Source of the DNA: Heteronotia binoei
Taxonomy: Eukaryota
Length of the DNA: 64,000 nt
Direction: 5' to 3'
Assembly: GCF_032191835.1 (NCBI RefSeq)
Contig: NC_083226.1
Coordinates: 9,796,001 to 9,860,000, forward strand
Shown here one piece after another: positions 1-61,103 of this stretch (the first letter of the stretch is position 1; each line of letters starts with the position of its first letter). Made by a program: the position numbers and the translations under genes. Under the pieces are notes generated by a model. The model saw only the letters and a program-made list of their open reading frames with translations, made no database searches and was not told the origin of the DNA.

Positions 1-460
1 AGATTTAAGAACCAATGACAGTGAAGTAAAATTATCTGGTAGGCAGTGGTTTAGAATGTAAAATGGTGCAATGGCAGAATAGTAAAATTAACAAATTGAG
101 CAAACCTTTGATCTGAGTAGAATGAGTACGTGAAAGGTTTGCTCAGTTTGTTAATTTTACTATTCTGTCATTGCACCATTTTACATTCTAAACCACTGCC
201 TACCAGATAATTTTACTTCACTGTCATTGGTTCTTAATCTGTACCATGTTGCATTCTGGGCCACTGCCTACCAGCTATGTATGGCTCTGCTCAGCTATGT
301 GTGCTTTGCTTACTGTGCTGGATTCCTCGTCTGCTGAAGCGTGCTTAAGAGCACACGAAAGCTTACCTTCTAAATAAAAATGGGTTGGTCTTAAAGGCGC
401 AACTTGACTCCTGCTTTGTTCAACTGCTTCAGACCAACACGGCTGCCTGCCTGGATGTTT
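1..460 (+). mobile_element. Penelope-like element (PLE) terminal-repeat unit in fold-back configuration, with degenerate hammerhead motif
   Basis: 1-~110 and ~131-240 are inverted arms. 328-367 reads CGT-CTGCTGA-stemII-GAAAGCTT. The ...GTTGGTCTTAAAGG...CAGACCAACACGGCTGCC 3' end is shared with copies at 2285-2420 and 25180-25490. Confidence 0.7.
328..367 (+). ncRNA. Minimal type I hammerhead ribozyme motif, degenerate (CUGCUGA core)
   Basis: cgt CTGCTGA a gcgtgc ttaaga gcacac GAAA gc t t acc. Core A6 is changed to C and stems I and II each carry a mismatch. Confidence 0.55.
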
Positions 461-4865: not shown

Positions 4866-6258
4866 GTTTCTAAAGACAATATAAGGCAGAACTTTCTCCC
4901 TCAATGAGTAATTTCCAGACAACTTCAGTGTTAAGTATTGTTTGCATGTTATTAATTGTCACTCTCAGAAATTTGTAAGAGTGTAATGATTTCATTCCAG
5001 ATTCAACATAAATGGAACAAGAAAATCAAAGCATGGTGACGGAATTCATCCTCATTGGATTTTCCAGCTTCCCAGATCTGCAGATCCCTCTGTTTGTGGT
5101 GTTCACCATTATGTACTTTACTATTTTGACAGGGAATATTATCATTATCACCACAGTAAGGCATGAATCCAGCCTTCATATCCCCATGTACTTCTTCCTT
5201 GCCATTCTCTCCAGTTCAGAAATCTGCTATACACTCATCATTATCCCCAATATGCTCGCAAATCTTCTAAGAGAAAAGGGAACTATTTCATTTGTTGGTT
5301 GTGCTACTCAGATGTCTATGTTCCTCGGCTTTGGCTGTACAAACTGCATGCTTCTGACAGTGATGGGGTATGATCGGTACGTGTCCATATGTAAACCTTT
5401 ACGTTATCCAGTTCTGATGAATCAGGGACTCTGTACTAAACTGGTTGTCATTTCAGCATCAACAGGTTTTCTTTGTTCTACGCTTGAGACCATTATTATA
5501 TTTACCTTGCCATTCTGTGGGCCAAATAAAATCCATCACTTCTTTTGTGATTTAGCACCGTTGCTTGAGTTGGCTTGTGGCCGAAATTATATAGGGGAAA
5601 TTGTTATTTTTCTTATTTGTTTTCTGGTGGTGTTTTGCTCGTTCCTTCTCATCCTTTTGTCATATCTTTTAATTTTAAACACAATCCTGAAAATCCCCAC
5701 CACAGATGGGAAGCGCAAGGCTTTTTCGACTTGCGCTTCCCATCTGATTGTGGTGGTTGTGCACTTTGGATGTGCTTCCATTATTTACCTGCGGCCCCAA
5801 TCCAGGTACACTTTGAATGAGGACACCTTGATCTCTGTCACATACACCCTGGTGACTCCGTTGCTGAATCCTGTTGTTTACAGCCTGAGGAACAAGGATG
5901 TCCAAGTGGCACTCCGGAAATTCCTGGGCAGAAGGGCTTATGGTGGATGAAACAGGCTTGCCATGAATTGTACGTTAGGGGGAAACAATGAATTATCATC
6001 CTGAAGAAAAGCCATGAGCTCAGTTAACATTTTTTTACTGTATGGAGCAATAATTTTACTTGCTATTTAGCCTCTTTCCCAAATCCATCTTCTAATTAAT
6101 TATGAAAATATATTTTCCTAATATCCATCCTCCAGTTGAAACATCTTATTTTCTTCTTACTTAACGTAGGAAAACAAATTGGATATTCTATCTAATAACT
6201 GAAATTGTAACTGTGAAGTGCCAAAGACAACTTTTTTTTTTTTTAATCCTGACAATAA
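4866..6258 (+). repeat. Segmental duplication unit shared with 14676-16100 (OR-a/OR-b with flanks)
   Basis: Homology runs from tttctaaagacaatataag to ttttaatcctgacaataa in both copies, including 5' intron and 3' UTR. Confidence 0.9.
5012..5950 (+). CDS. Olfactory receptor, class II, OR10-family-like (OR-a), 312 aa
   Basis: 7TM OR motifs: N-glycosylation sequon NQS, LHIPMYFFL, MGYDRYVSIC, KAFSTCASHL, PLLNPVVYSLRN. Acceptor ttcattccAG at 4999-5000. Confidence 0.95.
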   Translation: MEQENQSMVTEFILIGFSSFPDLQIPLFVVFTIMYFTILTGNIIIITTVRHESSLHIPMYFFLAILSSSEICYTLIIIPNMLANLLREKGTISFVGCATQMSMFLGFGCTNCMLLTVMGYDRYVSICKPLRYPVLMNQGLCTKLVVISASTGFLCSTLETIIIFTLPFCGPNKIHHFFCDLAPLLELACGRNYIGEIVIFLICFLVVFCSFLLILLSYLLILNTILKIPTTDGKRKAFSTCASHLIVVVVHFGCASIIYLRPQSRYTLNEDTLISVTYTLVTPLLNPVVYSLRNKDVQVALRKFLGRRAYGG

Positions 6259-6784: not shown

Positions 6785-7287
6785 TCAGTTCAGTTCAGTT
6801 TATTATTACAGTCATTGACCAGAACATTTTAGTCATCCAGAACAACCTTAAAAGTATCTTATAAAAAGTCTCACGATGAATCTGCACGTTAAAATTTGAT
6901 GACTTGAAGGTTATAACAGTAAAAACGGAATTTAAAAGATTACTGTTTAACCCTTTAAACCATTTTAAAAGGTCATTTACAAATTTGTTAAAAAGTTTAC
7001 AGTTGGCCTATTTGTCTCGCTTTTTGCTTTCTATATAAACATGGGAACAGAACCTAGACACCTGACTTGTTGTTTGATGGTTCCTATCTGACAGAAGATA
7101 ATCTAATTTGAGTTTATTTGATCTGCCAGGGAACCTTTCCAACAGCGGGCTAATAATTGCCCTTTGGCTCACCATATGAAAAGAACAATTAAAAAATATA
7201 TATGCTCCAGAGAATCTCCAGCTGGGAACAGAACCTAAGTACATAAGGAGTCCCTTTATACCTCCCCTCTACTGCTGCAGATGACCC
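6785..7287 (-). mobile_element. Non-LTR retrotransposon 3' end (clade uncertain) with (CTGAA)n tail
   Basis: ttcagttcagttcag tail at 6785. Minus strand encodes SAAVEGRYKGTPYVLRFC...IISPLLERFPGRS...LLSD, a LINE ORF2 C-terminal region. Confidence 0.55.
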
Positions 7288-7467
7288 CAGGGCCGTTTTT
7301 GTAGCAGGAACTCCTTTGCATATTAGGCCATTCACCCCTGATTTAGACAATCCTTCAAGATTCAAGTAGGCCCTGTAAGAAGAGCCCTTTAAGCTCTTGG
7401 GGGATTGGCTACATCAGGGGTGTGTGGCCTAATATGCAAAGGAGTTTCTGCTACAAAAAAGGCCCTG
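7288..7467. mobile_element. Palindromic hAT-type MITE (CAGGG terminus)
   Basis: cagggcc...ggccctg termini; self-complementary body (ctcctttgcatattaggcc / ggcctaatatgcaaaggag); same family as 47780-47951. Confidence 0.8.
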
Positions 7468-7649
7468 GGGTCATCTGCGGCAGTAGAGGGGAGGTATAAA
7501 AGGACTCCTTATGTACTTAGGCTCACCTCAAGGGGCGTTCATGGTGAGCCTCCATTAGCAGACCCTGTCAGGACAAAACATCTATGGCTGAGACTGGCAA
7601 GGTGCTTGTACCCGGTTGCCATGGCTCTGTTTTACTATCTTGCAGGTGG

Positions 7650-8439: not shown

Positions 8440-8657
8440 TTGCAATTAGAAAGAAAGAAACTGAAAGTTCTAGAGACTACTCAGGTTCAAAAAAAACCTA
8501 TTATACCTTAGGCAAAATTATTGGTTCAGGCATCCCAAATCATTAAAACTCCAAGTATGGAAAATTTAAAAAAGAGCAAGCCAACAGGTTTATTACCTCA
8601 CCAAGAGACAGATCAGGGAATATAGTGGTTTCATCAGAAAATATTTTGCAATACTAC
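8440..8657 (+). mobile_element. Old L1/Tx1-like ORF2 fragment, left part (split by the Gypsy insertion; continues 13322-13510)
   Basis: ITSPRDRSGNIVVSSENILQYY continues past the insertion as YYKTLY...LSDTHKQFLDTP and ITLQEVQEAMEHLKGK, which resembles the L1 ORF2 EN-RT linker. Confidence 0.5.
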
Positions 8658-8933
8658 TGTAATGTACTCAGTGACGACACGTGCAGAAGGCAACATACTT
8701 TATTCAAAGGTACATCACAGAACGGGGCAACACGGGCCGGGACCCGCTTTATATACACTCAGCCCGGAACAGCCCCCCAGCTGGCCCAGACCAATCCTGG
8801 CCCGTCAAACTTCCCGCCACAGATCTTAATTGGCGGAGTCCTTTCGCACGCTGCACCGAGTGACCAGGAGATTCCCCCTGGTCGCCTCTGCTGCATGGCC
8901 GCGCGGTGCTTTACTAAAGCACAATACACTACA
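8658..8933 (-). repeat. 3' LTR of Mag-like element
   Basis: 276 bp; 11 differences from 13046-13321 by manual count; preceded on the minus strand by PPT gggggggaggag (8934-8945). Confidence 0.95.
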
Positions 8934-8948
8934 CTCCTCCCCCCCAGG

Positions 8949-11900
8949 TCAAGTCACATAATCCTGCAAGTAGGCTGGGGCCCGGCGTTCCCGGGTTGAT
9001 CGCCTTGGGGTCCCTTGGGGCGTTGGGGCGGCCCCCGCAGAGGGGCTCTCCTCTTGGCGATTCTCTTCCGGTGGCTAGCGGGTCGCCCGGTCTCGGGGAA
9101 TCGTATGTTGGCAGGGTCGGCGCCGGCGGGGCCGCTTCAGGTGGTTCCGTTGTTGGCTCGTTCCCGCTTGCTGCTTCCCCAGCCCCTGTTGGCTCCTCCT
9201 GCATGGTGCGGCGGCACAGCTGGTCGATGTGTCTCCGGAGGATCTGGCCCCCCTCCGTTGACACCTCGTACGATCGGGACCCTGTCAACCGCAGAACCCG
9301 GCCTGCTACCCACTCTGGTCCGCTTGCGAAGTTCTTCGCAAAGACCGGGTCGCCCGGGAAGAACCCCCGCGCCGCTTCCCTGACTTCGGGGGAATTGCAG
9401 ACGTCGGTAGCCCGGTCTGGGTGCAGCCTGTCCAGCCTGGTTATCAGTTTCCTCCCCATGAGTAGTTCTGCAGGGCTCGATCCTGTTGTGGGGTTGGGGG
9501 TAATCCTGTTGTGGAACAGGAAGGTTGCCAGGCGGTGGTCCCAGTCCCCCTGCACTATGCGACCCAGGGCCTCTTTGGTGGTCCGCACCATGCGTTCTGC
9601 CTGGCCATTGGTGGCCGGATGGAAGGGGGCGGATCTAATATGCTGGATGAGGTACCGACTGATAAACTCCCGGAATTCCCGGGAGGTGAATGCAGTCCCA
9701 TTATCCGTGACCAGGGTGTCGGGGATCCCGTGCATACAAAAGACCCTCCGCAAAGCCCTGACGGCCGCTGCTGTGGAGGTGGATGCAACCAGGATCACCT
9801 CCAACCATTTAGTGTAGGCATCGACCAGGACGAAGAATATTTGGCCCTGGTATGGCCCGGCAAAATCTAAATGCAAGCGGGACCATGGCCGCCGGTTGGA
9901 CTCCCAGCAGTGGACGGGGGCACTTGGCGGATCGGGCCGGGATTCTTGGCAGGGTTGGCACCTTCTCACCCACCCCTCAATCTCCTCATCCATGCCTGGC
10001 CACCATACGTAACTGCTGGCCAGGGCTTTCATTCTCACAATCCCGGGGTGGGTTTCATGTAGGGCGTCTAAAACTTGCTTGCGCATGGGCGGGGGACCAC
10101 CACCCTGCTGCCCCAGAGTAAGCAACCCTTGTGCGTGGATAGTTCGTCTCTTCGTGACGCAAATGGCCTGAACTCACTGTCCACCTTGCCCGTAGGCCAC
10201 CCCCTCCCCACCCAGTCCAGAACCCGTGCGAGGATGCGGTCCCTGCCTGTAACCCGAGCCACCTCAGCGGCGTGGAGTGGCTGCTTGGGCAGAGACTCTA
10301 TGAGCATCACCTGGTGGGCCAGGGTGGGATCTGGGTCTGTTGAAGAAAGCGGCAGGCGGCTGAGGGCATCCGCGTGCCCCATTGCTTTGCCCGGGCGGTG
10401 CACTAAGGTGTAGGAGTAAGAGTTGAGGAATTGGTTCCACCTCAGGACTCACTGGGACAAGATTTGTGGGGTCTGCCGGTCGGGGGCGAGGAGGCCCAGG
10501 AGCGGCTTATGGTCGGTGGCAATGGTGAAGTGCCTACCATATAGGCAGTCGTTGAACTTGTGCACCCCCGCCACGATTGCCAGAGCCTCCTTGTTGATCT
10601 GAGCGTAGTTGCGCTCCGCGGGGGCTAGAGTTCTTGAATAGTATGCTACCGGGACCTCCCTCCCGTCCGGGAGTTGGTGCCCCAGAACTGCACCCACCCC
10701 GTACGAGGAAGCGTCGCAAGCCAGGATCAGCGGCAGGGCTTCGTCGAAGTGGTGGAGCACAGCGTTGGAGACAAGGAGATCCTTGACTGCCTGAAATGCT
10801 GCGGCTTGGCGCTTTCCCCAAACCCACGGGGCTTGTTTATCAAGCAGCCGGTGGAGTGGTTCTGCTATGGCCACCTTGTGGGGCAGGAACGAATGGTAAA
10901 AGTTCAACAACCCCAAGAAACTTTGGAGCTCCGCCTTGCATGTGGGGGCTGGGGCTTGGACGATAGCCCTGGTTTTGTCCTCCGTCGGGTGGATCTCCGC
11001 TGCGTCCACGGTGAACCCCAGGAACTCCACCCGCGGTACCCCTAGCAAGCATTTTTCCTTTTTGACCTTTAGCCCCGCCGCTTGAAAGCGGCTGAGGACC
11101 TCTCTCAGGTGGCTGCTGAATTCCTCTGCGTCTGGGGCGGTGATTAGAACATCATCGAAAAATGGCTGCACTCTGGGGATCGCTTTAAGGAGAGAGTCCA
11201 TTATACTCTGAAAGATCCCCGGAGCTACGCTAACCCCAAATTGTAGCCTCCGAACCCTAAAAGCTCCCCGGTGGGTGACAATGGTCTGTGCCTCGGTGGT
11301 CTTGGCGTCGACCGGTAGTTGCTGGTATGCTTGTGCCAAATCCAGCTTCCCAAAAATTTTGGACCCTGCTAGGGCTGCCAGTATGTGGCTGACCACCGGG
11401 ACGGGGTAAGGGTTGTCCTGGAGCGCTTTGTTGATAGTGCACTTGTAGTCAGCACAAATTCTCACCTCCCCATTTGGCTTCACAGGTGTGACTATGGGAG
11501 TTTCCCAGGCCGCATAGGACACTGGTTCTAAGACTCCCTGGGCTGTGAGGCGGTCCAGCTCTGCCTCAATCTTTGGTTTTAAGGCGAACAGGACCCGCCT
11601 CGCCTTGAGCCGGATCGGTCTGACCAGGAGATCGAGCGGCAGAATGATGGGCGGCCCTTTGTAACTCCCCAGGAACCCATCAAAAACGGCTGGGAACTCC
11701 CGGCAGACGTCCTCGAAGCTACCCACCTGTACTTGCTCTACCCCCACTAACTGGATCCCCAGTGGTTGGAACCAGGCCAGCCCCAGTAAGGTGGTGAGCT
11801 GGCGCTTGACCACCAGAATGTCCAGAGGTCCCCTGAATTTCCCTCTCTCTACCCATACCCGGGCCCAGCCCACAATGTGTACCGGGTTTTTTGGGAAGTC

Positions 11901-12932
11901 CCTCAGAACAAACTCAGCCGGCCTCAGTTGGAGGCGGCGGCGGGGGCACAGTTTCTTTAGGGTTTCCTCCGAAATTATGGAGATGGAGGAACCAGAGTCC
12001 ACTTCCATGAGGCATGGGGCGCCCTCAATGAGGACCGTCATTTTAACCTTGTCGGGGGCGGAGAGGGGCAAGTTCAATACCTGCAGGTTGGTTGACGCTG
12101 TCATGTGGGCCTCGGTGGAGTCATGATGCGCTGTCGGTCGCCGACGGCTGTTCTTGGCCCGGCAAGCCCGAGCGATGTGGCCCATCTTTCCACAACTACG
12201 GCAGTCCATGTTGCAGTATGGACAGTCCCTCCTCTCGTGGGGGTCGCCGCAGCTGGCGCACTTGATGGTGGAGGGTCTCTCCGTCGCTCATTGCCTTGAG
12301 GGGGCTCTTGGGTCTGCTCCTTGTGGCCGCTGGAGCTGGAAAGCCTCTTCGTCCTCCCGGTCACCCGGCACCATCTTTTCCTGGTGGACTGCCTCTCCAC
12401 GTGGGTGGCTGTATGCTTTTGTGGCCCTCTCGAAGGCTGTCGCCTCGTTGAAGGCTTGTTGGAGGGTGAGCTCTTCCTTAGCGAAGAGCTTCTGTTGCAG
12501 CCTTTCATCTCGGAGGCCCCAGACGAATCGGTCTCTCAGGGCCTCCTCTCGTTTGTCGAACCCGCAGTTCCCTGCGATCTGGCGGAGGGCGGCCAGGTAG
12601 ACTGCAGCCATCTCCCCGGACTTCTGGTCCCTCTTGTGGAAGAGGAATCTGCGGGCGACGATGGACGGTTGGGGCGAGAAATGCCCTGTGAGGAGTCTGA
12701 CGACCTCCCCGTATGTCCTCTCGGTGAGCTTCACTGGGGCAAAGAGACCTCGTGCGATCTCAAAGGTTGCCTCTCCGCAGACGCTCAACAGGACGTCCCT
12801 CATTCGGTTGTCGTCCGTGATCATGTTGGCCCGCAGGTAGCATTCGACCCGTTCGGTATAGGTCTCCCACCTCTCGGGGTGGTCTGGGTTGAACTCAGCA
12901 AGATGGCCCGTCGTTACACTAGAGTTCGCCAT
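8949..12932 (-). pseudogene. gag-pol polyprotein of Mag-like Gypsy element with 2 nonsense codons and 2 frameshifts
   Basis: Zinc knuckles CASCGDPHERRDC and CRSCGKMGHIARAC; protease VDSGS; RT FFDD; RNase H CDASS/TDHKPL; integrase H..H...CQPC, DFAGP, DNG, AER. In-frame TGA at 12288 and 10449; -1 nt at 10091-10095. The C-terminal RRAPAYLQDYVT* (stop 8949-8951) is in a shifted frame. Confidence 0.92.
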
Positions 12933-13026
12933 CGCGGCGGTGGGCGTCCCAGTTTCTTGCGGTTCTGCGCCTTCCTCGTCTCCAGCCAGGTCAGCTGTTT
13001 TCCCTTGAGAAAGCCTTCCTAGCCAG

Positions 13027-13044
13027 ATCCCATCCTCGTCGCCA
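13027..13044 (-). promoter_or_regulatory. Primer-binding site complementary to tRNA-Ser(GCU) 3' end
   Basis: Minus strand TGGCGACGAGGATGGGAT, 1 nt from the 5' LTR; the plus strand atcccatcctcgtcgcca equals the vertebrate tRNA-Ser(GCU) 3' end as I recall it. Confidence 0.85.
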
Positions 13045-13045
13045 G

Positions 13046-13321
13046 TGTAATGTGCTCAGTGACGAGACGTGCAGAAGGCAACATACTTTATTCAAAGGTA
13101 CATCACAGAACGGGGCAACGTGGGCCAGGACCCGCTTTATATACACTCAGCCCGGAACGGCCCCCCAGCTGGCCCAGACCAATCCTGGCCCGTCAAACTT
13201 CCCGCCACAGATCTTGATTGGCGGAGTCCTTTCGCACGCTGCGCCGAGTGACCAGGGGATTCCCCCTGCTCGCCTCTGTTGCATGGCCGCGCGGTGCTTT
13301 ACTAAAGCACAATACACTACA
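13046..13321 (-). repeat. 5' LTR of Mag-like element
   Basis: 276 bp, tgtaatg...cactaca, adjacent to the PBS. Confidence 0.95.
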
Positions 13322-13534
13322 ACTACAATACTACAAAACACTATACACTTGTAGCAATCCGACCAAAACCAGCATTGACAACTATTTCCATTTTAACAAA
13401 TTGGTCAAAAAGCTTTCAGACACTCACAAACAATTCTTAGACACACCCCATAACATTGCAGGAGGTACAAGAGGCCATGGAACATCTAAAAGGAAAACAA
13501 ACGGACTCTCTTCGGAGTGCCTGAAAGCTTCGGA

Positions 13535-13670
13535 GATAATATCCTGTGGGGTTTAGAAACTTGTTTACAACCCTTTGGGCTGATTACAAGCCTTATAAAA
13601 AGAAAGGTTTTGTGACAAATTGCTACTAATTGGAAGAGCCCTTCTACAGCCTCCCTCCATGGAAGTATTC
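13535..13670 (+). pseudogene. Degenerate copy of the OR promoter/exon-1 block (upstream of OR-b)
   Basis: Aligns with 18896-19030, 30620-30750, 48450-48580 and 56985-57115, but ggaATGgaa has become ggaagagc and the cac|GTAAG donor has become cat|GGAAG (13661). Confidence 0.7.
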
Positions 13671-13879
13671 TGCTTTATGTATTTCTTCATTACCTGTTCG
13701 TTCTAGAATGGAATGAGGCTTGTGAAGGAGACTTAAAGCACCTTTAACTTAAGAGCTTTTTCAGTTATATTTCCCCAACTGAGGGAAAGTGGAACAAAGC
13801 CTTTGAGGAGTGATTGGCAGCCCAGGAGAGGTAAGGAAACCATTAGTTGCATCCCAATACAACAACTCAGCTCGTAGCT

Positions 13880-14145
13880 AAGAAGAGAGGAAGAGCCGTG
13901 CTGGATCAGACAAAAGTCCCATCAAGTCCAGCCTCTTGCTCATGCAGTGGTCAACCGGCTGCCTCTGGAAGCCCACAAGCAGGATGACGGCAACAGCAAT
14001 TTCCTGCCATGCACCCCAGAAAGGGATATAGAGAGGATCCGGAGGGAGTAGATATCCATCTAGACTAGTGGACGTTGACAGCCCTGTCCTCGATGAATTT
14101 GGCCACACCATCTTAAAGCCTTCCAAGTTGTTGGCCATCACCACT
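13880..14145 (-). mobile_element. CR1-type LINE 3' fragment
   Basis: gccgtgctggatcagac...catcaagtccagcc...aagccttccaagttgttggccatcaccac is typical of squamate CR1 3' ends. Confidence 0.65.
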
Positions 14146-14364
14146 TAAATATCTGGTAAAATTGTTGAACAGATCTTTCAGCAGTCAGCCTGTGAGCATC
14201 TAGAGAAATATATGTTGACTATTGGGATCTGGATAAGGAGCACCGTGGCGCAGAGTGGTAAAGCTATAATTCCTGTACTAAATAGGAAGTTGCACTAGGT
14301 TGCCTCCTAATTCTGCCAGCCTATGACTCTAACTCAGAAGTATTTTTAGTAGAGCCTGAAGGTT

Positions 14365-14650
14365 TCATGCATTAGCCTGGAGAGGAGGCAGCTGAGAGGT
14401 GATGTGATCGCAGTCTTCAAGTACTTAAAGGGCTGCCATCTAGAGGATGGTGCAGGGCTGTTCTCTGTTGCTGCAGAAGGTAGGACCGGAACAGTTGGTT
14501 GCAATTAAATCAGAGGAGTTTCCGCTCAACATTAGGAAGAACCTCCTGATAGTTAGAGCAGTTCCTCAGTGGAACAAGTTCCTTGGGAGTTGGTTGTCTC
14601 TCCTTCGTTGGAGGCTTTTAAACAGAGGCTAGATGGCCGTCTGACGGGAA
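14365..14650 (+). mobile_element. CR1 LINE 3' fragment
   Basis: ttagcctggagaggaggcagctgagaggtgat...aacattaggaagaac...aaacagaggctagatggcc. Confidence 0.8.
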
Positions 14651-14833
14651 GGCTGAACCTTTGAATGGGAATGTTATTTCTAAAGACAATATAAGCCACC
14701 CCTTCTCTCTCTTTGAGAAGTTTCCAGACAACTTCAGAGTTAAGGTAACCCCAAGAATTTTTTGTGTAAATTATTAATTGTCACTCTCAGAAATTTTTAA
14801 GGGTGTAATGGTTTCATTCCAGATTCAACATAA

Positions 14834-15772
14834 ATGGAACGAGAAAATCAAAGTATGGTGACAGAATTCATCCTCATTGGATTTTCCAGCTTCCCAGATC
14901 TGCAGATCCCTCTGTTTGTGGTGTTCACCATTATGTACTTTACTATTTTGATAGGGAATATTATCATTATCACCACAGTAAGGCATGAACCCAACCTTCA
15001 TATCCCCATGTACTTCTTCCTTGCAATTCTTTCCAGTTCAGAAATCTGCTATACACTCATCATTATCCCCAATATGCTCGCAAATCTTCTAAGAGAAAAG
15101 GGAACTATTTCATTTGTTGGCTGTGCTACTCAGATGTCTATGTTCCTCGGCTTCGGTAGTACAAACTGCATGCTTCTGACAGTGATGGGGTATGATCGAT
15201 ACGTGTCCATATGTAAACCATTACGTTATCCAGTTCTGATGAATCAGGGACTCTGTACTAAACTGGTTGTTTTTTCAGCTTCAACAGGTTTTCTTTGTTC
15301 TACACTTGAGACCATTATTATATTTACCTTGCCATTCTGTGGGCCGAATAAAATCCATCACTTCTTTTGTGATTTAGCACCATTACTTGAGTTGGCCTGT
15401 GGCCGAAATTTTATGGGGGAAATTGTTATTTTTCTTATGTGTTTTCTGGTGGTGTTTTGCTCGTTCCTTCTCATCCTTCTGTCATATCTTTTAATCTTAA
15501 ATGCAATCCTGAAAATCCCCACCACAGAAGGAAAGCGCAAAGCCTTTTCAACTTGCACCTCCCATCTCATTGTGGTGGCTGTACATTTTGGATGTGCTTC
15601 TATTATTTACCTGAGGCCCCAATCCAGGTACACTTTGAATGAAGACATGTTTATCTCTGTTACATACACCCTGGTGACTCCGTTGCTGAATCCTGTCGTT
15701 TACAGCCTGAGGAACAAGGATGTCCAAGTGGCACTCAGGAAATCCTTGGGCAAAAGCACCTGGAAGATGTGA
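14834..15772 (+). CDS. Olfactory receptor, class II, OR10-family-like (OR-b), 312 aa
   Basis: Same OR motifs as OR-a, its closest paralogue; acceptor AG at 14821-14822. Confidence 0.95.
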   Translation: MERENQSMVTEFILIGFSSFPDLQIPLFVVFTIMYFTILIGNIIIITTVRHEPNLHIPMYFFLAILSSSEICYTLIIIPNMLANLLREKGTISFVGCATQMSMFLGFGSTNCMLLTVMGYDRYVSICKPLRYPVLMNQGLCTKLVVFSASTGFLCSTLETIIIFTLPFCGPNKIHHFFCDLAPLLELACGRNFMGEIVIFLMCFLVVFCSFLLILLSYLLILNAILKIPTTEGKRKAFSTCTSHLIVVAVHFGCASIIYLRPQSRYTLNEDMFISVTYTLVTPLLNPVVYSLRNKDVQVALRKSLGKSTWKM

Positions 15773-18082: not shown

Positions 18083-18350
18083 AGAGTCGATTTTGCACAC
18101 AGCTTACCACGCAGTCACGTTCCAGTTCTCTGTGCAGCATCTGTCGGATTTCCCACTATCTGCGCCGGAGTTACAGGAAATGTCGCGGCTTTCATGTAGC
18201 AAACGTAAACCGCTAAAACCCAGTTTATGTTTGCTACACAAAAGCTGCAGCACTTCCTGTAACTCCGGGCGCAGATAGTGGGAAATCCGACGGACGCTGC
18301 GCAGAGAACAGGAACGTGACCATGGGGTAAGCTGTGTGCGAAATCGGTCT
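18083..18350. mobile_element. Long palindromic MITE (PIF/Harbinger-like)
   Basis: ~265-bp self-complementary element, gtcgattttgcacacagcttacc...ggtaagctgtgtgcgaaatcggtc; related to 21813-22078 and 33237-33508. Confidence 0.7.
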
Positions 18351-18994: not shown

Positions 18995-19019
18995 ATGGAA
19001 TCCTATAGTTTACTTTCAC
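18995..19019 (+). CDS. Predicted 25-nt coding exon 1 of OR-c (MESYSLLS+)
   Basis: ggaATGGAATCC...TCAC|GTAAGC; splices in frame to acceptor 22338-22339 (25+11 = 36 nt). Confidence 0.65.
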
Positions 19020-21812: not shown

Positions 21813-22078
21813 GGCCGTTTTCCCACTAAGCTTACCTCGGAGCGACGTCCCTCTTCACCGCGCAGCATCTGTGCAGATTTCCCACCAACTGCTCCGAGGA
21901 ACCAGGAAGTTCCCGACCTTTTGCGTCGCAAATGGAAACTGCTAAAAACCAGTTTACGTTAGCGACGCAAAAGCCGCGACTCTACTTGGTTACTCGGAGC
22001 AGTTGGTGGGAAATCCGCGCAGACACTGCGCGGTGAAGAGGGACGTCGTTCCGAGGTAAGCTCAGTGGGAAAACGGCC
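21813..22078. mobile_element. Palindromic MITE (PIF/Harbinger-like), 266 bp
   Basis: TIR ggccgttttcccact / agtgggaaaacggcc, 3-bp TSD ACA, self-complementary body. Confidence 0.8.
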
Positions 22079-25159: not shown

Positions 25160-25490
25160 CTCCTAAGATAGATCCAAGCGGGCAGCCGTGTTGGTCTGAA
25201 GCAGTTGAACAAAGCAGGAGTCAAGTTGCGTCTTTAAGACCAACCCATTTTTATTCAGAACGTAAGCTTCCGTGTGCTCTTAAGCACACTTCATCAGACG
25301 AGGAATCCAGCACAGTGAGCAAAGCCATACATAGCTGAGCAGAGCCCTACATAGCTGGTAGGCAGTGGCCCAGAATGCAACATGCTACAGATTTAAGAAC
25401 CAATGACAGTGAAGTAAATTCACTGTCTGTACCATGTTGCATTCTGGGCCACTGCCTACCAGCTATGTATGGCTCTGTTCAGCTATGAAT
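25160..25490 (-). mobile_element. Penelope-like terminal-repeat unit with fold-back and hammerhead motif
   Basis: Near-identical to 240-460 in reverse orientation; inverted arms 25330-25391 / 25426-25487. Confidence 0.75.
25261..25300 (-). ncRNA. Minimal type I hammerhead motif, degenerate (GAAA to GGAA)
   Basis: Minus strand: cgt CTGATGA a gtgtgc ttaaga gcacac GGAA gc t t acg; stems I and II perfect. Confidence 0.6.
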
Positions 25491-30717: not shown

Positions 30718-30742
30718 ATGGAATCCGACAGTCTGTCTCCAC
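30718..30742 (+). CDS. Predicted 25-nt coding exon 1 of OR-d (MESDSLSP+)
   Basis: ggaATGGAATCC...CCAC|GTAAGC; in frame with acceptor 37217-37218 plus the 11-nt leader. Confidence 0.65.
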
Positions 30743-31058: not shown

Positions 31059-33085
31059 GAGAGCCAGTTTGGTGTAGTGGTTAAGTGTACAGACTCTTAT
31101 CTGGGAGAACCAGCTTTGATTCCCCACTCCTCCACTTGCAGCTGCTGGAATGGCCTTAGGTCAGCCATAGCCCTGGCAGAGGTTGTCCTTGAAAGGGCAG
31201 CTGCTGTGAAAGTCCTCTCAGCCCCACCCACCTCACAGGGTGCCTGTTGTGGGGGAGGAAGGGAGAGGAGATTGTGAGCCACTCTGAGACTCTGTCCTTG
31301 AAAGGGCAGCTGCTGTGAGAGCCCTCTCCAGCCCCACCGACCTCACAGGGTGTCTGTTGTGGGGGAGGAAGGTGAAGGAGATTGTAGGCCATTCTGAGAC
31401 TCTGTCCTTGAAAGAGCAGCTGCTGTGAGAGCCCTCTCAGCCCCACCCACCTCACAGGGTGTCTGCTGTGGGGGGGGGGAGGTAAAGGAGATTATAGGCC
31501 GCTCTGAGACTCTGTCCTTGAAAGGGCAGCTGCTGTGAGAGCCCTCTCAGCCCCACCCACCTCACAGGGTGTCTGTTGTGGGGGAGGAAGGTAAGGGAGA
31601 TTGTAGGTCGCTCTGAGACTCTGTCCTTGAAGGGGCAGCTGCTGTGAGAGCCCTCTCCAGCCCCACCAACCTCACAGGGTGTCTGTTGTTGGGGAGGAAT
31701 GGAAAGGAGATTGTAGGCCGCTCTGAGACTCTGTCCTTGAAAGGGCAGCTGCTGTGAGAGCCCTCTCAGCCCCACTGACCTCACAGGGTGTCTGTTGTGG
31801 GGGGGGAAGGTAAAGGAGATTGTAGGCCGCTTTGAGACTCTGTCCTTGAAAGGGCAGCTGCTGTGAGAGCCCTCTCAGCCCCACCCACCTCACAGGGTGT
31901 CTGCTGTGGGGGGGGAAGGTAAAGGAGATTATAGGCCGCTCTGAGACTCTGTCCTTGAAAGGGCAGCTGCTGTGAGAGCCCTCTCAGCCCCACCGACCTC
32001 ACAGGGTGTCTGTTGTGGGGGAGGAAGGTAAAGGAGATTGTAGGCCGCTCTGAGACTCTGTCCTTGAAAGGGCAGCTGCTGTGAGAGCCCTCTCAGCCCC
32101 ACCCACCTCACAGCGTGTCTGTTGTGGGGGAGGAAGGTAAAGGAGATTGTAGGCTGCTGTGAGACTCTGTCCTTGAAAGGGCAGCTGCTGTGAGAGCCCT
32201 CTCAGCCCCACCCACCTCACAGCGTGTCTGTTGTGGGGGAGGAAGGTAAAGGAGATTGTAGGCCGCTCTGAGACTCTGTCCTTGAAGGGGCAGCTGCTGT
32301 GAGAGCCCTCTCAGCCCCACCCACCTCACAGCATGTCTGTTGTGGGGGAGGAAGGTAAAGGAGATTGTAGGCTGCTGTGAGACTCTGTCCTTGAAAGGGC
32401 AGCTGCTGTGAGAGCCCTCTCAACCCCACCAACCTCATAGGGTGCCTGTTGTGGGGGAGGAAGGTAAAGGAGATTGTGAGCCGCTCTGAGACTCTGTCCT
32501 TGAAAGGGCAGCTGCTGTGAGAGCCCTATCAGCCCCACCCACCTCATAGGGTGTCTGTTGCGGGGAAGGAAGGTAAAGGAGATTGTGAGCCGCTCTGAGA
32601 CTCTGTCCTTGAAAGGGCAGCTGCTGTGAGAGCCCTATCAGCCCCACCTACCTCACAGGGTGTCTGTTGTGGGGGAGGAAGGTAAAGGAGATTGTAGGCC
32701 ACTCTGAGATTCTGTCCTTGAAAAGGCAGCTGCTGTGAGAGCCCTCTTAGCCCCTCCCACCTCACAGGGTGTCTGTTGTGGGGGAGGAAGGTAAAAGAGA
32801 TTGTAGGCCTCTGTGAGGCTCTGTCCTTGAAAGGGCAGCTGCTGTGAGAGCCCTCTTAGCCCCTCCCACCTCACAGGGTGTCTGTTTTGGGGGAGGAAGG
32901 GAAAGGAGATTGTAGGCCTCTGTGAGGCTCTGTCCTTGAAAGGGCAGCTGCTGTGAGAGCCCTCTCAGCCCCGCCTACCTCACAGGGTGTCTGTTGTAGG
33001 GGAGGAAGGGAAAGGAGATTGTGAGCCGCTGTGAGACTCTTCAAAGTGGACGGCGGGATATATATCCAATATCTTCTTCTTCTTC
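31059..33085 (+). repeat. tRNA-derived SINE with internal ~109-bp minisatellite (~17 units)
   Basis: Single SINE head (ggtgtagtggttaag...ttgattcccc) and single tail (ggatatatatccaatatcttcttcttc) bracket 17 gtccttgaa-containing units; the ORF track shows 109-bp periodicity. Confidence 0.92.
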
Positions 33086-33236
33086 AAATCTCTGGTTAAT
33101 AGTCCAGATTATGACAGGAGATGATTTCCATTGTGGGGCATCTCAGTGCATTTGAATTATATACGCATTGGGATCTTGAAGATGGTGAGATCCATGCTTA
33201 GCTGAAGGCGAAGTACTATGTGTGATTTTTAAAAAG

Positions 33237-35184: not shown

Positions 35185-36308
35185 GAATCGTTTTTGGTGT
35201 AGTGGTTATTTGTGCGGACTCTTATCTGGGAGAACTGGGTTTGATTCCCCACTCCTCCACTTGCAGCTGCTGGGATGGCCTTGGGTCAGCCATAGCTCTG
35301 GCAGAGGCTGTCCTTGAAAGGGCAGCTGCTGTGAGAGCCCTCTCCAGCCCCACCCACCTCACAGGGTGTCTGTTGTGGGGGAGGAAGGGAAAAGAGATTG
35401 TAGGCTGCTCTGAGACTCTGTCCTTGAAGGGGCAGCTGCTGTGAGAGCCCTCTCCAGCCCCACCCACCTCACAGGGTATCTGTTGTGGGGGAGGAAGGGA
35501 AAGGAGATTGTAGGCTGCTCTGAGACTCTGTCCTTGAAAGGGCAGCTACTGTGAGAGCCCTCACCTCACAGGGTGTCTGTTGTGGGGGAGGAAGGTAAAG
35601 GAGATTGTGAGCCACTCTGAGACTCTGTCCTTGAAAGGGCAGCTACTGTGAGAGCCCTCTCCATCCCCACCCACCCCTCAGGGTGTCTGTTGTGGGGGAG
35701 GAAGGTAAAGGAGATTGTGAGCCGCTCTGAGACTCTGTCCTTGAAAGGGCAACTGCTGTGAGAGCCCTCTCAGCCTCACCCACCTCACAGGATTTCTATT
35801 GTAGGGGAGGGAGATAAAGGAGATTGTAAGCAGCTCTGAGACTCTGTCCTTGAAAGGGCAGCTGCTATGAGAGCCTTCTCAGCCCCGCCCACCTCACAGG
35901 GCGCCTGTTGTGGGGGAGGAAGGGAAAGGAGATTGTGAGCCGCTCTGAGACTCTTCGGAGTGGAGGGCGGGATATAAATCCAATATCTTCATCTACCTCA
36001 CAGGGTGTCTGTTGTGGGGGAGGAAGGTAAAGGAGATTGTGAGCCGCTCTGAGACTCTTCGGAGTGGAGGGCGGGATATAAATCCAATATCTTCATTTAC
36101 CTCACAGGTTGTGGGGGAGGAAGGGAAAGGAGATTGTGAGCCCCTCTGAGACTCTTCGGAGTGGAGGGTGGGATATAAATCCAATATCTTCTTCTACCTC
36201 ACAGGGTGCCTGTTGTGGGGGAGGAAGGTAAAGGAGATTGTGAGCCGCTCTGAGACTCTTCGAAGTGGAGGGCGGGATATAAATTCAATATCTTCTTCTT
36301 CTTCTTCT
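35185..36308 (+). repeat. Same tRNA-SINE with ~6 internal units followed by ~4 tail-containing units
   Basis: Head at 35185; gtccttgaa units to ~35950; ctcttcggagtggagggcgggatataaat repeated at ~35952, 36056, 36152 and 36257. Confidence 0.88.
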
Positions 36309-37229: not shown

Positions 37230-38174
37230 ATGAAACAAGAAAATAACAGTGTGGTGACAGAATTCATCTTCATTGGATTTTCCAATTTCCCAGACCTGCA
37301 GGTGCCACTGTTTGTGGTGTTCACCGTCATGTACTTGGCTATTTGGGTTGGAAATGTCATCATCGTCACAACAATAAGGCGCGAGTCCAGCCTCCACATC
37401 CCCATGTACTTCTTCCTTGCCGTTCTCTCCAGTTCAGAAATCTGCTACACTCTAATGATTATCCCAAATATGCTTGCAAATCTTCTAAGGAAAAAAGCAA
37501 GTATTTCTTTCACCGGCTGTGCTACTCAGATGTATATGTTCTTGGCCTTTGGAGACACAAACTGTCTGCTTCTTACAATGATGGGGTATGACCGATACGT
37601 GTCCATATGTAAACCTTTACATTATCCGATTCTGATGAATCAGAGATTCTGTACTAAACTAGTTGTCTTTTCAGTAGCATCTGGTTTTCTTTTATCTGCT
37701 CCGCAGACCTACTTCATATTTAGCTTGCCGTTCTGTGGGCCGAATAAAATCCATCACTTCTTTTGTGATTTAGCACCTTTACTTCAGCTGGCCTGTGACC
37801 GAAATTATATAGGGGAAATTGTCCTGTTTGTTATTAGTATTTTGGTGGTCTTCTGCTCATTTCTTCTTATCCTTCTGTCATATCTTTTAATCTTAAGTGC
37901 AATCCTGAAAATCCCCACCACAGACGGGAAGCACAAAGCCTTTTCGACTTGCGCCTCCCATCTCATTGTGGTGGTGGTGCACTTTGGATGCGCTTCCATT
38001 ATTTACCTGAGGCCCCAATCCAGGTACACTTTGAATGCAGACATATTCATCTCTGTCTCATACACACTGGTGACTCCATTGTTGAATCCTGTGGTTTATA
38101 CCCTGAGGAACAAGGATGTCAAAATAGCTCTCAGGAAATCCCTGGGCAGAAGGAAATTCTCCTGGAAGATCTGA
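37230..38174 (+). CDS. Olfactory receptor, class II, OR10-family-like (OR-d), main exon 314 aa (326 aa if spliced)
   Basis: OR motifs (NNS, PMYFFL, MGYDRY, KAFSTCASHL, PLLNPVVY); acceptor ttcgttccAG 37217-37218. Confidence 0.95.
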   Translation: MKQENNSVVTEFIFIGFSNFPDLQVPLFVVFTVMYLAIWVGNVIIVTTIRRESSLHIPMYFFLAVLSSSEICYTLMIIPNMLANLLRKKASISFTGCATQMYMFLAFGDTNCLLLTMMGYDRYVSICKPLHYPILMNQRFCTKLVVFSVASGFLLSAPQTYFIFSLPFCGPNKIHHFFCDLAPLLQLACDRNYIGEIVLFVISILVVFCSFLLILLSYLLILSAILKIPTTDGKHKAFSTCASHLIVVVVHFGCASIIYLRPQSRYTLNADIFISVSYTLVTPLLNPVVYTLRNKDVKIALRKSLGRRKFSWKI

Positions 38175-46125: not shown

Positions 46126-46258
46126 TCCTCACACAGTTGTTACATGTGTGAGCTGGAGGCTAAAAATCTGTGAGCTAGCTCACACTAACTCAGTTTAGAG
46201 GGAACACTAGTCATCAGCATACTACTTACAATATTTTACACCTCCTACAATTCCTGAA

Positions 46259-47586: not shown

Positions 47587-47779
47587 CCTACAGATCCACC
47601 TAACGATAACAGGATCCAAACCTGTTATTCATCTTGATCCTGGATTCCTTGGAATTCCATCTTTGCTGCCCAATTCTTCTCTTCCAAGGATAGCATGTCT
47701 CTTATTCTATGTTAGTGTCACCACCACCAAAGGTCCATAACCTCATGGATGACTTGGGGAAAGTCTGGGGTATCCCAGC

Positions 47780-47951
47780 CAGGGGTGGAATTCTAGCAGG
47801 AGCTCCTTTGCATATTAGGTCGCACACCCCTGACGTAGCCAATCCTCCAAGAGCTTACAAAAAAAGAGCCTTGTAAGCTCTTGGAGGATTGGCAACGTCA
47901 GGGGTGTGTGGCCTAATATGCAAAGGAACTCCTGCTAGAATTCCACCCCTG
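47780..47951. mobile_element. Palindromic hAT-type MITE, 172 bp
   Basis: caggggtggaattctagcagg / cctgctagaattccacccctg; 8-bp TSD atcccagc / atcccagt (7 of 8 match). Confidence 0.9.
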
Positions 47952-47980
47952 ATCCCAGTCCTACAGCATGCGGTATACTC

Positions 47981-48160
47981 TATACTCCTATGATTATCCC
48001 AAATATGCTTGCAAATCTTTTAAGGAAAAAAGCAACTACTTCTGTCGCCGGCTGCGCTACTCAGATGTATACGTTCCTGGCCTTTGGAGACACAAACTGT
48101 CTGCTTCTTACAATGATGGGGTTTGACCGATATGTGTCCATATGTAAACCTTTACATTAC
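47981..48160 (+). pseudogene. Isolated internal OR fragment (TM2 end to MGFDRY/KPLHY), most similar to OR-d
   Basis: MIIPNMLANLLRKKA...TQMYTFLAFGDTNCLLLTMMGFDRYVSICKPLHY; non-OR sequence on both sides. Confidence 0.9.
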
Positions 48161-48394
48161 AGTGCCGCCCACTGCCCAACAAATAGGGTAGGCTTTGGCG
48201 TTCCAGATACCAGGCACATTAGAAAGCAACAAGCCTGCTGCGTGCCTAATTGCCTGTCACTGGGGACAGCAACTGATCAGAGGGGTCTGTCCAACACGGG
48301 GGGGGGGGGGGTCTGCTTCAACACAACTGTTGATGTGATGGAGGGGAGGGATTTCTTCACCATCTTTCTGACTCCTCAAAGAACTTGTTATGTC

Positions 48395-49281
48395 AGCTCT
48401 CATTGACACTGTAATGGCTAATGAGTGTAACCTCTCAAATGCAATAGAGATAATATCCCAGAGGATTTAGAAACTTGTTTACAGTGTTTCGTGCTTTGTA
48501 AATGCCATATAAAAGCAGGGTATTGTGGCAAAATTCTGTCCTTTGGAATGGAATCCAACAGCTCACCTCCACGTAAGAAATCTGTTTTCTATATTCCTTC
48601 TTGATTCAAAAATGATGTGGCCTCTGTTTCACTAGTGGTTTGTATGAATGTCATGCCAAAAGGCACTCTATACGCTTGGTAGCTGAATACTTCCCTTGCA
48701 TGCAAAAGGCTCCAGCTTCTTTTCCTGGCACCATCAGTTCAGAGAGCTCTTAATTAGTGGGGCTGAGAAGACCTCCACAAACGACTTAGGAGAACTGCTG
48801 CAGCAGTCTGGAATAGACAACATTCAGAGGATGGATTCTTATTCAAAGACAGATTCAGAGAGGATCTCAGGTTAATAGTCCAAAATGGCAGGAGATGATT
48901 TCCTAATGCATTCAGTCTTGGGCCATTCAGGGCTGCCCAGAGCCACTGTGGGCCCCAGGACAGAGATTCCATCTGCCTCCTTTGACCCTGATCCAAAATC
49001 AAAAGCATAACATATTGAATTTCTAGGCTTCCTCATACTGTGACCATTGATGTCTCCATGTGTCCATGGCACCTTTCAGATGTGGGCATGACAACCATGT
49101 CCTCTTAGGATGCAGATGTCTGACCACCAGAGCAAAAGCAGGAAGAGATATCTTCAGACTCCCTTAGTGATATGTCTTCTGGATCAACATCATAAGCTCA
49201 TTCATTTTACTTTTTTTGCCACTGAGTTGGTACCTTATCATCACCATGAATTAATAAGCTGTCACTCCAAAGAGAGGCATT
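48395..49281 (+). repeat. ~99% identical duplicated non-coding tract (partner 56930-57815) containing the OR promoter and exon 1
   Basis: Manual alignment: 8 substitutions and 1 homopolymer indel in ~886 bp. Confidence 0.95.
48548..48572 (+). CDS. Predicted 25-nt coding exon 1 of OR-e (MESNSSPP+)
   Basis: ggaATGGAATCC...CCAC|GTAAGA; upstream TAATGA (~48419), TCCCAGAGGA (48456) and catataaaag (~48506); in frame with acceptor 51204-51205. Confidence 0.65.
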
Positions 49282-49819
49282 TTGGCTCTACACTTTGGAT
49301 TCTCTGCACCCAAAGGTCTTCAGTGATTGTTTATATCAGGGCATCTGCCTGACCTTCTGTGGTGCCTTCAGTTGTCCCTGATTGTCTAGCACCGCAACTC
49401 ACAACAGAGTTAGTGAGGGAAGGCCAAATGAAACAAAGAAGCCTTCATCCATTGGTGGAAGACAACGATAATACATCCGTCTCCTTGGGGAGGGAGTTCC
49501 AAGGCCCCTTTCTTGGGTTCCCTCTAGGCTTGCTAACCTCCCAGTGGGGCCTGGAGATCTCCCAAAATTGCAACTGATTTCCAGACTACAGAGATCAGCT
49601 CTCCTGGAGGAAATGGGTGCTTCGGAGGGTGGACTCTATGGCATTATACCCCACTGAGGTCCCTCCCCAAACCCCACAACATAATATCATTATATTGGTA
49701 TAATTTTATAACAAACACATGCACCAAAATTTCTGAATTTTAATTCCCCCCCCGCAAACTATGTCTCTATCCCCTTCTGTTGCAGATATATCTAAACATC
49801 TTTATAAATGAATTGAATT

Positions 49820-56717: not shown

Positions 56718-57815
56718 TATTCATCTTAATCCTGGATTCCTTGGAATTCCATCTTTGCTGCCAAATTCCTCTCTTCCAAGGATAGTGTGTCTCTTATCCT
56801 ATGTTAGTGTCACCACCATCAAAGGGTCCATAGCCTCATGGATGACTTGGGGAAAGTCTGGGGTATCCCAGCCAGGGGTGGAATTCTAGCAGGAGCTCCT
56901 TTGCATATTAGGTTGCACACCCCTGATGTAGCTCTCATTGACACTGTAATGGCTAATGAGTGTAACCTCTCAAATACAATAGAGATAATATCCCAGAGGA
57001 TTTAGAAACTTGTTTACAGTGTTTCGTGCTTTGTAAATGCCATATAAAAGAAGGGTATTGTGGCAAAATTCTGTCCTTTGGAATGGAATCCAACAGCTCA
57101 CCTCCACGTAAGAAATCTGTTTTCTATATTCCTTCTTGATTCAAAAATGATGTGGCCTCTGTTTCACTAGTGGTTTGTATGAATGTCATGCCAAAAGGCA
57201 CTCTATATGCTTGGTAGCTGAATACTTCCCTTGCATGCAAAAGGCTCCAGCTTCTTTTCCTGGCACCATCAGTTCAGAGAGCTCTTAATTAGTGGGGCTG
57301 AGAAGACCTCCACAAATGACTTAGGAGAACTGCCGCAGCAGTCTGGAATAGACAACATTCAGAAGATGGATTCTTATTCAAAGACAGATTCAGAGAGGAT
57401 CTCAGGTTAATAGTCCAGAATGGCAGGAGATGATTTCCTAATGCATTCAGTCTTGGGCCATTCAGGGCTGCCCAGAGCCACTGTGGGCCCCAGGACAGAG
57501 ATTCCATCTGCCTCCTTTGACCCTGATCCAAAATCAAAAGCATAACATATTGAATTTCTAGGCTTCCTCATACTGTGACCATTGATGTCTCCATGTGTCC
57601 ATGGCACCTTTCAGATGTGGGCATGACAACCATGTCCTCTTAGGATGCAGATGTCTGACCACCAGAGCAAAAGCAGGAAGAGATATCTTCAGACTCCTTT
57701 AGTGATATGTCTTCTGGATCAACATCATAAGCTCATTCATTTTACTTTTTTGCCACTGAGTTGGTACCTTATCATCACCATGAATTAATAAGCTGTCACT
57801 CCAAAGAGAGGCATT
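56718..57815 (+). repeat. Duplicated copy of 47627-49281 lacking ~47840-48394
   Basis: 56718-56930 is ~95% identical to 47627-47839; it then jumps at AGC microhomology into the ~99% identical tract. Confidence 0.92.
57083..57107 (+). CDS. Predicted 25-nt coding exon 1 of OR-f (MESNSSPP+)
   Basis: Identical to 48548-48572; donor GTAAGA at 57108; in frame with acceptor 59914-59915. Confidence 0.62.
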
Positions 57816-60871: not shown

Positions 60872-61103
60872 GAAGTACTTATGTCTCATCATAAGTTTTG
60901 ATTCCTGGGTAAACGACAAATTATCGCCTTTAAAAAGTTGTACAGTGCTGTCCACCACTTAACATTTGTTACAGTATGGAAGAAGAATCTTCTTTTAGAA
61001 AAACTTGTTATTTACAGTATTTCTGATATAGGTTCAGAATAACATATGCATAATATCTCAACAATTGTGTGGATATATTTTGTAGAACAAAACATTTCAA
61101 ACT

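What the first reader, a model, noticed from the sequence alone, without database searches (positions are those of the whole stretch)
13535..14836. Coordinated loss of the N-terminal mini-exon in the OR-a/OR-b lineage
The block upstream of OR-b has lost the ATG (ggaagagc) and the donor (cat|GGAAG at 13661). Both OR-a and OR-b have an in-frame TAA directly before the main ATG (AT TCA ACA TAA ATG; 5009-5011 and 14831-14833), whereas the four genes with intact mini-exons have open leaders. Three matching lesions act as an internal control for the exon being coding. The upstream TAATGA part of the block is replaced by L1/Gypsy sequence, and a strong AG|GTAAGG at 13830/13831 could be a replacement non-coding donor. 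No exon-1 copy for OR-a was found in the window.
Basis: partly seen in the sequence, partly recalled or inferred. Interest (0 to 1): 0.7.

Follow-up and report, generated by a model that had tools for sequence, protein, structure and literature searches.

The report
Gecko smell receptors drop upstream start
Two neighbouring gecko smell-receptor genes have lost an upstream start codon that their five relatives keep in a predicted tiny first exon, so they likely make a protein 12 amino acids shorter; one of the two still has that exon's splice signal intact, so this is an ordinary start-site shift of a kind known from mammals and not a coordinated loss of the exon.

Summary
The coordinates are right; the headline is not. 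OR-a's exon-1 block exists just upstream of the window (G000:C4:9795147-9795299). It lacks the ATG but keeps a canonical donor (cat|GTGAGT). The broken donor (13661) is therefore private to OR-b and younger than the a/b duplication. Only the TAA, and probably the ATG loss, are shared, each as one ancestral event. Five paralogues (four independent exon copies) keep an ATG 25 nt before the donor and an 11-nt leader after the acceptor, an open in-frame 12-codon extension; a neutral simulation gives this with P about 0.002-0.09. A public Paroedura gecko model carries a homologous 12-residue extension, and three gecko homologues have lost the main Met instead. Against: the extension shows no peptide-level constraint, 21 of 30 gecko homologues keep the main Met, and no RNA could be examined. 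Best reading: a promoter-proximal exon with a likely leaky in-frame start became non-coding in the a/b ancestor; OR-b later lost the donor and acquired L1 and Gypsy insertions. The replacement donor at 13830 is untested. Known kind (split-start/uATG ORs, PMC7055050); the scan noted similar lizard ORs on other DNA. Low interest.

The parts
5012..5950 (+). OR-a coding sequence, 312 codons, intact. Its exon-1 block lies outside the window (G000:C4:9795147-9795299; last exonic base C4:9795269; no ATG between TATA-like box and donor; donor GTGAGT intact; intron 5731 nt)
4987..5011 (+). OR-a splice acceptor (AG ends 5000) and 11-nt leader ending in TAA at 5009-5011
8658..13321 (-). Gypsy-type LTR retrotransposon, LTRs 8658-8933 and 13046-13321 (96% identical), 5-bp target-site duplication at 8653-8657 and 13322-13326; RT, RNase H and integrase domains; inserted into an L1 fragment
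13337..13496 (+). L1 ORF2 fragment (70% identical to L027, an L1 copy elsewhere in G000); continues left of the Gypsy element at 8592-8651; replaces the 5' part of OR-b's promoter block
13533..13660 (+). OR-b promoter block and predicted exon 1: O/E-like site at about 13541-13551, TATAAA at 13594, exon segment without the paralogues' ATG and 1 nt longer than theirs
   Evidence: motif identity from PMC8213819 and PMC3247239 plus recalled O/E consensus
13661..13666 (+). Broken donor of OR-b (GGAAGT; +2 T to G), private to b
13828..13836 (+). Candidate replacement donor GAG|GTAAGG (13830/13831) in sequence with no homologue in the other paralogues; its use would put four short closed upstream ORFs (ATGs at 13659, 13677, 13708, 13713) in the leader; untested
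14742..14750 (+). Second candidate donor AAG|GTAACC (14744/14745), in 13 bases that OR-a lacks, 78 nt before the acceptor; untested
14809..14833 (+). OR-b splice acceptor (AG ends 14822) and 11-nt leader ending in TAA at 14831-14833
14834..15772 (+). OR-b coding sequence, 312 codons, intact, Pfam 7tm_4; dN/dS against OR-a 0.13
18995..19019 (+). OR-c exon-1 coding part (ATG to donor, 25 nt); main ATG 22351
30718..30742 (+). OR-d exon-1 coding part (25 nt); main ATG 37230
48548..48572 (+). OR-f exon-1 coding part (25 nt), near-identical copy of g's block; main ATG 51217
57083..57107 (+). OR-g exon-1 coding part (25 nt); main ATG 59927

Best explanation
Each gene of this gecko OR10R2-like cluster has a promoter block and a predicted short first exon whose ATG, kept in five paralogues, would splice in frame and likely add 12 residues to the receptor's outer N-terminus; OR-a and OR-b lack that ATG and share a stop before the main ATG, so their first exon likely became purely non-coding, and only OR-b has also lost the donor. 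Mechanism (inferred): the upstream ATG has a strong Kozak context but lies only about 10 nt after the predicted start of transcription, so ribosomes probably use both it and the main ATG. That redundancy lets a lineage lose either start. The a/b ancestor lost the upstream one (probably one 4-nt deletion) and fixed TCA to TAA in the freed leader. OR-a still splices at the old donor. After the duplication OR-b took an L1 fragment into its promoter, later a Gypsy element, and a GT to GG donor change; it likely uses a downstream donor (13830 the first candidate) or is now poorly expressed.
For: OR-a block with intact donor and no ATG. ATG + 25 nt + donor and acceptor + 11 nt + ATG in 5 of 5 other paralogues, no stop, no frameshift; neutral simulation joint P 0.002-0.094 over seven settings, 0.002-0.017 at the indel rate measured between a and b. 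Upstream ATG has G at -3 and +4 in 5 of 5; the main ATG has a purine at -3 in 1 of 7. Paroedura model P0004 has 12 extra residues, 9 of 12 seen at the same column in a window leader; none of the 6205 other open ATG frames in 264 kb reach its score; its ninth residue (His) is what the splice gives, the genomic read-through codon in OR-c is Asp. Main Met replaced in P0002, P0021, P0027 at three separate places in the tree, and kept in 6 of 6 homologues of the a/b clade. a-b exon alignment scores 39 against 3-15 to the intact copies, with one 5-nt indel, favouring a shared ATG loss. LTRs 96% identical against a/b dS 0.18.
Against: No transcript was seen. Codons 2-8 show no coding pattern (identity 0.60, 0.71, 0.71 at positions 1, 2, 3) and codons 4-8 are less conserved (0.57) than flanking non-coding sequence (0.67, 0.74). 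The ATG lies in a 15-nt stretch with 13 invariant columns, which could be a DNA or RNA element conserved for another reason. Only 1 of 30 gecko homologue models carries the extension and 21 of 30 keep the main Met; the P0002, P0021 and P0027 models use other starts, may be pseudogenes or annotation rescues, and their DNA was not seen. The simulation was designed after seeing the pattern and assumes a star tree. Independent ATG losses in a and b cannot be excluded.
Confidence: 0.65

Rival explanations
1. Exon 1 has always been an ordinary non-coding 5' UTR exon. The ATG is a by-product of a conserved motif near the start of transcription and is too close to the cap to be used much; the a/b changes are neutral drift.
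For: No codon-position signal, low identity in codons 4-8, conservation concentrated in 15 nt around the ATG including non-coding bases; main Met kept in 7 of 7 cluster genes and 21 of 30 gecko homologues; in-frame upstream ATGs are common in OR transcripts (13.6% human, 21.5% mouse; PMC7055050 passages).
Against: Frame and openness kept across four independent exon copies and five leaders; homologous extension in P0004; the only lineage with a stop is also the only one without the ATG; main-Met loss in three homologues with full-length frames.
Confidence: 0.25
2. One reading: the a/b lineage lost the mini-exon as a unit through three coupled lesions (ATG, donor, stop).
For: All three lesions are present in OR-b; the stop is shared with OR-a.
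Against: OR-a keeps the block, a TATA-like box and a canonical donor with 8 of 9 consensus matches; the +2 change is seen only in b. A reversion in a would be needed.
Confidence: 0.05
3. On OR-b alone: the donor change is not rescued. OR-b is a gene on its way to silence after L1 and Gypsy insertions, and its frame is intact only because the damage is recent.
For: TAATGA part replaced by L1, Gypsy LTR 210 bases upstream, broken donor, four upstream ATGs in any read-through leader; b's branch carries 11 non-synonymous and 14 synonymous derived changes against 5 and 18 on a's. Donor-like sites at the 7-of-9 level occur within 170 nt by chance with P 0.31.
Against: The branch difference is not significant (Fisher p 0.13); both branches are far below the neutral ratio of about 3 to 1; O/E-like site and TATA-like box are kept; OR-c and OR-a also lack TAATGA; the exact heptamer AGGTAAG is expected within 170 nt with P about 0.01.
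Confidence: 0.3

Closest known systems
Mammalian split OR genes and in-frame upstream ATGs (Barnes et al. 2020, PMC7055050; passages read)
   Same: Start Met in a short upstream exon, intron in the extracellular N-terminal region, intron length of a few kb (2.6-6.5 kb here; means 3.4-3.8 kb there), isoforms that differ by 3-15 N-terminal residues.
   Different: All seven genes here keep a conserved downstream Met that gives a full-length single-exon frame; Barnes et al. excluded such cases from their list and said translation would need proteomics. No transcript evidence here. Reptile, not mammal. The a/b genes show the loss of the upstream start.
Canonical vertebrate OR gene: O/E plus homeodomain (TAATGA) promoter, sometimes TATA, short non-coding 5' exon, single coding exon (PMC8213819 passages; PMC3247239 abstract)
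   Same: OR-a now has exactly this layout: O/E-like site, TATA-like box, predicted non-coding exon of about 30 nt, intron, acceptor 11 nt before the ATG.
   Different: TAATGA is absent from the blocks of a, b and c; in c-h the short exon carries an in-frame ATG.
[quoted passage not shown] 2014; title seen only in a reference list)
   Same: Shows by its title that multi-exon OR coding regions are reported outside mammals.
   Different: Not read; layout not compared.

Membership tests
Olfactory receptor (OR10R2/10T2-like clade) | Intact 300-350 aa frame with 7tm_4 domain | tested here: met
   OR-b 312 aa, PF13853 E 1e-45; nearest named relatives are gecko OR10R2-like proteins at 82-86%
Split OR gene (Barnes 2020), genes c-h | Start Met and splice junction conserved in orthologues or closest paralogues | tested here: met
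   5 of 5 paralogues (4 independent exon copies); one homologous model P0004
Split OR gene (Barnes 2020), genes c-h | No conserved in-frame downstream ATG that still gives more than 300 aa | tested here: not met
   All seven cluster genes keep the main ATG; 21 of 30 gecko homologues keep it
Split OR gene (Barnes 2020), genes c-h | Transcript support for the junction | not testable with these tools
   The one run search (on OR-b) listed no run
Split OR gene (Barnes 2020), second class | Alternative transcripts, one split and one single-exon frame | not testable with these tools
   No RNA available
Split OR gene (Barnes 2020), genes a and b | In-frame ATG in the upstream exon | tested here: not met
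   No ATG in a's exon; b's ATG absent; in-frame TAA in both
Canonical OR proximal promoter | Homeodomain site TAATGA near the start | tested here: inconclusive
   Present in d, f, g, h; absent within 150 nt upstream in a, b, c
Canonical OR proximal promoter | O/E-like site bound by Ebf | tested here: inconclusive
   A loose pattern (recalled consensus) matches the block start in a, b, c, d, f, g but not at that position in h; binding untested

The most novel reading that the evidence does not exclude
This gecko OR clade inherited two in-frame starts on either side of an intron, and lineages resolve the redundancy in both directions: a/b dropped the upstream start, while some Paroedura and Gekko genes dropped the main one and now depend on the 25-nt exon. 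The cluster would be a natural series showing how split-coding OR genes arise and revert, and public models would be missing 12 residues, or mis-starting, for much of the clade.
Probability: 0.35. Interest if true: 0.45.

Novelty: new member of a known kind. Interest (0 to 1): 0.22.

Why it matters
Modest. If both directions of loss hold up in orthologous DNA, the cluster gives a simple route by which split-coding ORs are gained and lost. A 12-residue change in a variable outer N-terminus is not expected to change receptor biology much.

Tried and rejected
Run search for RNA on window:14680-16100: none was listed; this is no evidence on expression, and no reads could be laid. Region search with P0004 residues 1-60: 11 hits among 14 candidates, no second protein with the homologous extension. 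Cluster look-ups found one other extended isoform, Euleptes P0102, whose 9 extra residues replace the main Met and do not resemble the leader; OR-a's exact protein is not in the collection. Genome search with 13690-13885 found only itself, and a sensitive comparison found no homologue of it in the other six introns, so the 13830 donor cannot be tested by conservation. TAATGA loss as a fourth coupled lesion: rejected, OR-c lacks it too. Codon-position test: negative. The search of G000 with b's block missed the c and h copies; local comparison found them, so that search is a lower bound. Orthologous gecko DNA could not be fetched (no relatives held), so the date of the TAA is unknown. Paper searches for a reptile case listed nothing that by title or abstract start describes one; this covers only the open library.

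Full report
Setting. The window is G000:C4:9796001-9860000. It holds six intact olfactory receptor frames on the + strand, here a (5012), b (14834), c (22351), d (37230), f (51217), g (59927), and a fragment e. With 100 kb fetched on each side, the cluster has one more intact gene, h (C4:9870190), and one 3' fragment upstream. The nearest named proteins are gecko OR10R2/10T2-like receptors. a and b are sisters (100/96 support), with dS 0.18 and dN/dS 0.13.

Checking the observation. The sequence 5' of b's block is an L1 ORF2 fragment (70% to L027 over 160 nt) that continues on the far side of a Gypsy element; the Gypsy has RT, RNase H and integrase domains, LTRs 96% identical and a 5-bp target duplication. 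So L1 came first and Gypsy inserted into it, after the a/b duplication if LTR divergence (4%) is set against dS (18%).

The missing piece. A search of the own genome with b's block gave five matches; the best after itself is 85% identical and lies 700-855 bases upstream of the window (L002). This is OR-a's block. It has the same O/E-like site and TATAAA as b, no ATG between TATAAA and donor, and an intact donor cat|GTGAGT that matches 8 of 9 consensus positions, against 7 of 9 for c, d, f, g, h. The other five genes read GTAAG at +1 to +5, so the simplest history is GTAAGT in the a/b ancestor, a +3 change in a and a +2 change in b. The donor lesion is private to b and is not coordinated with the shared stop. 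From the conserved TGGA to the donor, a is 4 nt shorter and b 1 nt longer than the intact copies. a and b align to each other with score 39 and one 5-nt indel, against 3-15 to intact copies; one shared deletion of the ATG followed by a 5-nt insertion in b is the more economical reading, but two separate losses are not excluded. TAATGA is present in d, f, g, h and absent in a, b and c, so its loss does not follow exon state.

Is exon 1 coding in the others? For: in 5 of 5 genes the ATG is 25 nt before the donor and the acceptor 11 nt before the main ATG, giving 12 open in-frame codons. f and g share one recent copy of the block (98.8% over 895 bp), so there are four independent exon copies and five leaders. 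A neutral star-tree simulation keeps all ATGs, no stop and the frame with joint P 0.002-0.094 over seven settings, 0.002-0.017 at the indel rate seen between a and b (7 indels per 69 substitutions); the test was designed after seeing the data. The upstream ATG has G at -3 and +4 in all five; the main ATG has a purine at -3 only in d. A public Paroedura picta model, P0004 (XP_077202580.1, 326 aa), has exactly 12 extra residues; 9 of 12 occur at the same column in a window leader, 6 of 7 within exon-1 codons 2-8, and of 6209 open ATG frames in the 264 kb only four reach its score, all four being exon-1 copies used to build the profile. Its ninth residue is His, as the splice predicts; reading through OR-c's acceptor gives Asp. 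Whether that model rests on RNA I could not see. Of 30 gecko-labelled homologues fetched, 21 have Met at the main position, 3 have Thr or Val there in separate clades (P0002, P0021, P0027), 4 Sphaerodactylus paralogues have Thr with a new Met two residues earlier, and 2 models are uninformative (P0034, P0102). The six homologues that group with a/b all keep the main Met; that node is only moderately supported (92/91) and the numbers are too small for a test.

Against: codons 2-8 show no third-position relaxation (0.60, 0.71, 0.71), codons 4-8 are less conserved (0.57) than the upstream (0.67) and intronic (0.74) flanks, and the conservation is concentrated in 15 nt around the ATG (13 invariant columns), five of them non-coding. 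Only 1 of 30 models has the extension. So what is conserved is a start, a length and an open frame, not a peptide.

How it likely works. The block looks like an OR proximal promoter: homeodomain site, O/E-like site and TATA-like box (motif classes from PMC8213819 passages, and PMC3247239 abstract; the O/E pattern itself is recalled). In g the ATG lies 40 nt after the first base of TATAAA; with the usual spacing of about 30 nt (established knowledge) the 5' leader would be about 10 nt, short enough for leaky scanning (recalled). Both starts would then be used, which explains why the main Met is usually kept and why either can be lost. In an intact gene the TAA would close the upstream frame right at the main ATG and lower its use, so the stop is tolerated best once the ATG is gone; a free lineage gains a stop in those three codons with P 0.02-0.05. 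That is one event of modest weight, not three. OR-a's predicted mRNA has a short non-coding exon and the main ATG as first AUG. All of this paragraph is inference.

OR-b. With the donor gone, the first GT site at the 7-of-9 level downstream is 13830; others are 14479 and 14744. Such sites occur every 450 nt or so (P 0.31 within 170 nt), while the exact AGGTAAG is rarer (14 in 264 kb, P about 0.01). Use of 13830 would add four upstream ATGs, all closed before the exon end. b's branch has 11 non-synonymous and 14 synonymous derived changes, a's 5 and 18 (Fisher p 0.13): selected for most of its history, with slight relaxation not excluded. No RNA run was listed, which says nothing either way.

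Comparison with what is known. Barnes et al. 2020 (PMC7055050, passages; supplements not viewed) describe 13 human and 41 mouse ORs with the coding region split across two exons, introns mostly in the N-terminal region, isoforms differing by 3-15 residues, and in-frame upstream ATGs in 13.6% and 21.5% of genes. They excluded cases with a conserved downstream Met, which is the state of c-h. So c-h work like split ORs but fail that list's filter; a and b are ordinary single-coding-exon ORs. Searches listed no paper on a reptile case. Two unchecked notes of this scan report split-start lizard ORs in other genomes; I did not test them.

Verdict. Observation partly confirmed, interpretation partly supported. 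Real but ordinary: a shift from two possible starts to one in the a/b ancestor, and a separate later donor loss in b. Interest 0.22.

Noticed in passing
window 48390-49284 and 56926-57818 (also 47626-47839 / 56718-56932, 50009-50581 / 57817-58392): The promoter, exon 1 and intron start of OR-f and OR-g are 98.8% identical although their coding regions differ by dS 0.49: a recent duplication or conversion gave one gene the other's promoter and leader.
   Followed up: partly
window 47963-48160: Internal OR fragment (about codons 67-132), 92.8% identical to OR-d 37445-37624, wedged next to the duplicated f/g block.
   Followed up: no
window 48548-48572 and 57083-57107: The predicted extension of f and g contains an Asn-Ser-Ser sequon, a possible second N-glycosylation site absent from c, d and h.
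   Followed up: no
proteins P0013, P0018, P0028, P0103 (Sphaerodactylus): A four-gene clade with Thr at the main Met position and a new Met two residues upstream; a third way of moving the start. DNA not seen.
   Followed up: no
G000:C4, about 13.3-13.8 kb upstream of the window start (L007): 3' half of an OR (codons 158-309, 81% to OR-b) cut off by a repeat; no promoter block found near it.
   Followed up: partly
window 31059-33086, 35193-36308, 61103-61698, 62689-63414: Arrays of a 109-110 bp tandem repeat on both strands between the OR genes.
   Followed up: no
window 44200-46128 (- strand): A second, different Gypsy-like remnant (RNase H and integrase-like frames by eye) between OR-d and OR-f.
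   Followed up: no
window 5-237, 7231-7524, 18088-18346, 21813-22078, 25327-25490: Several long palindromic (self-complementary) elements, likely non-autonomous DNA transposons.
   Followed up: no
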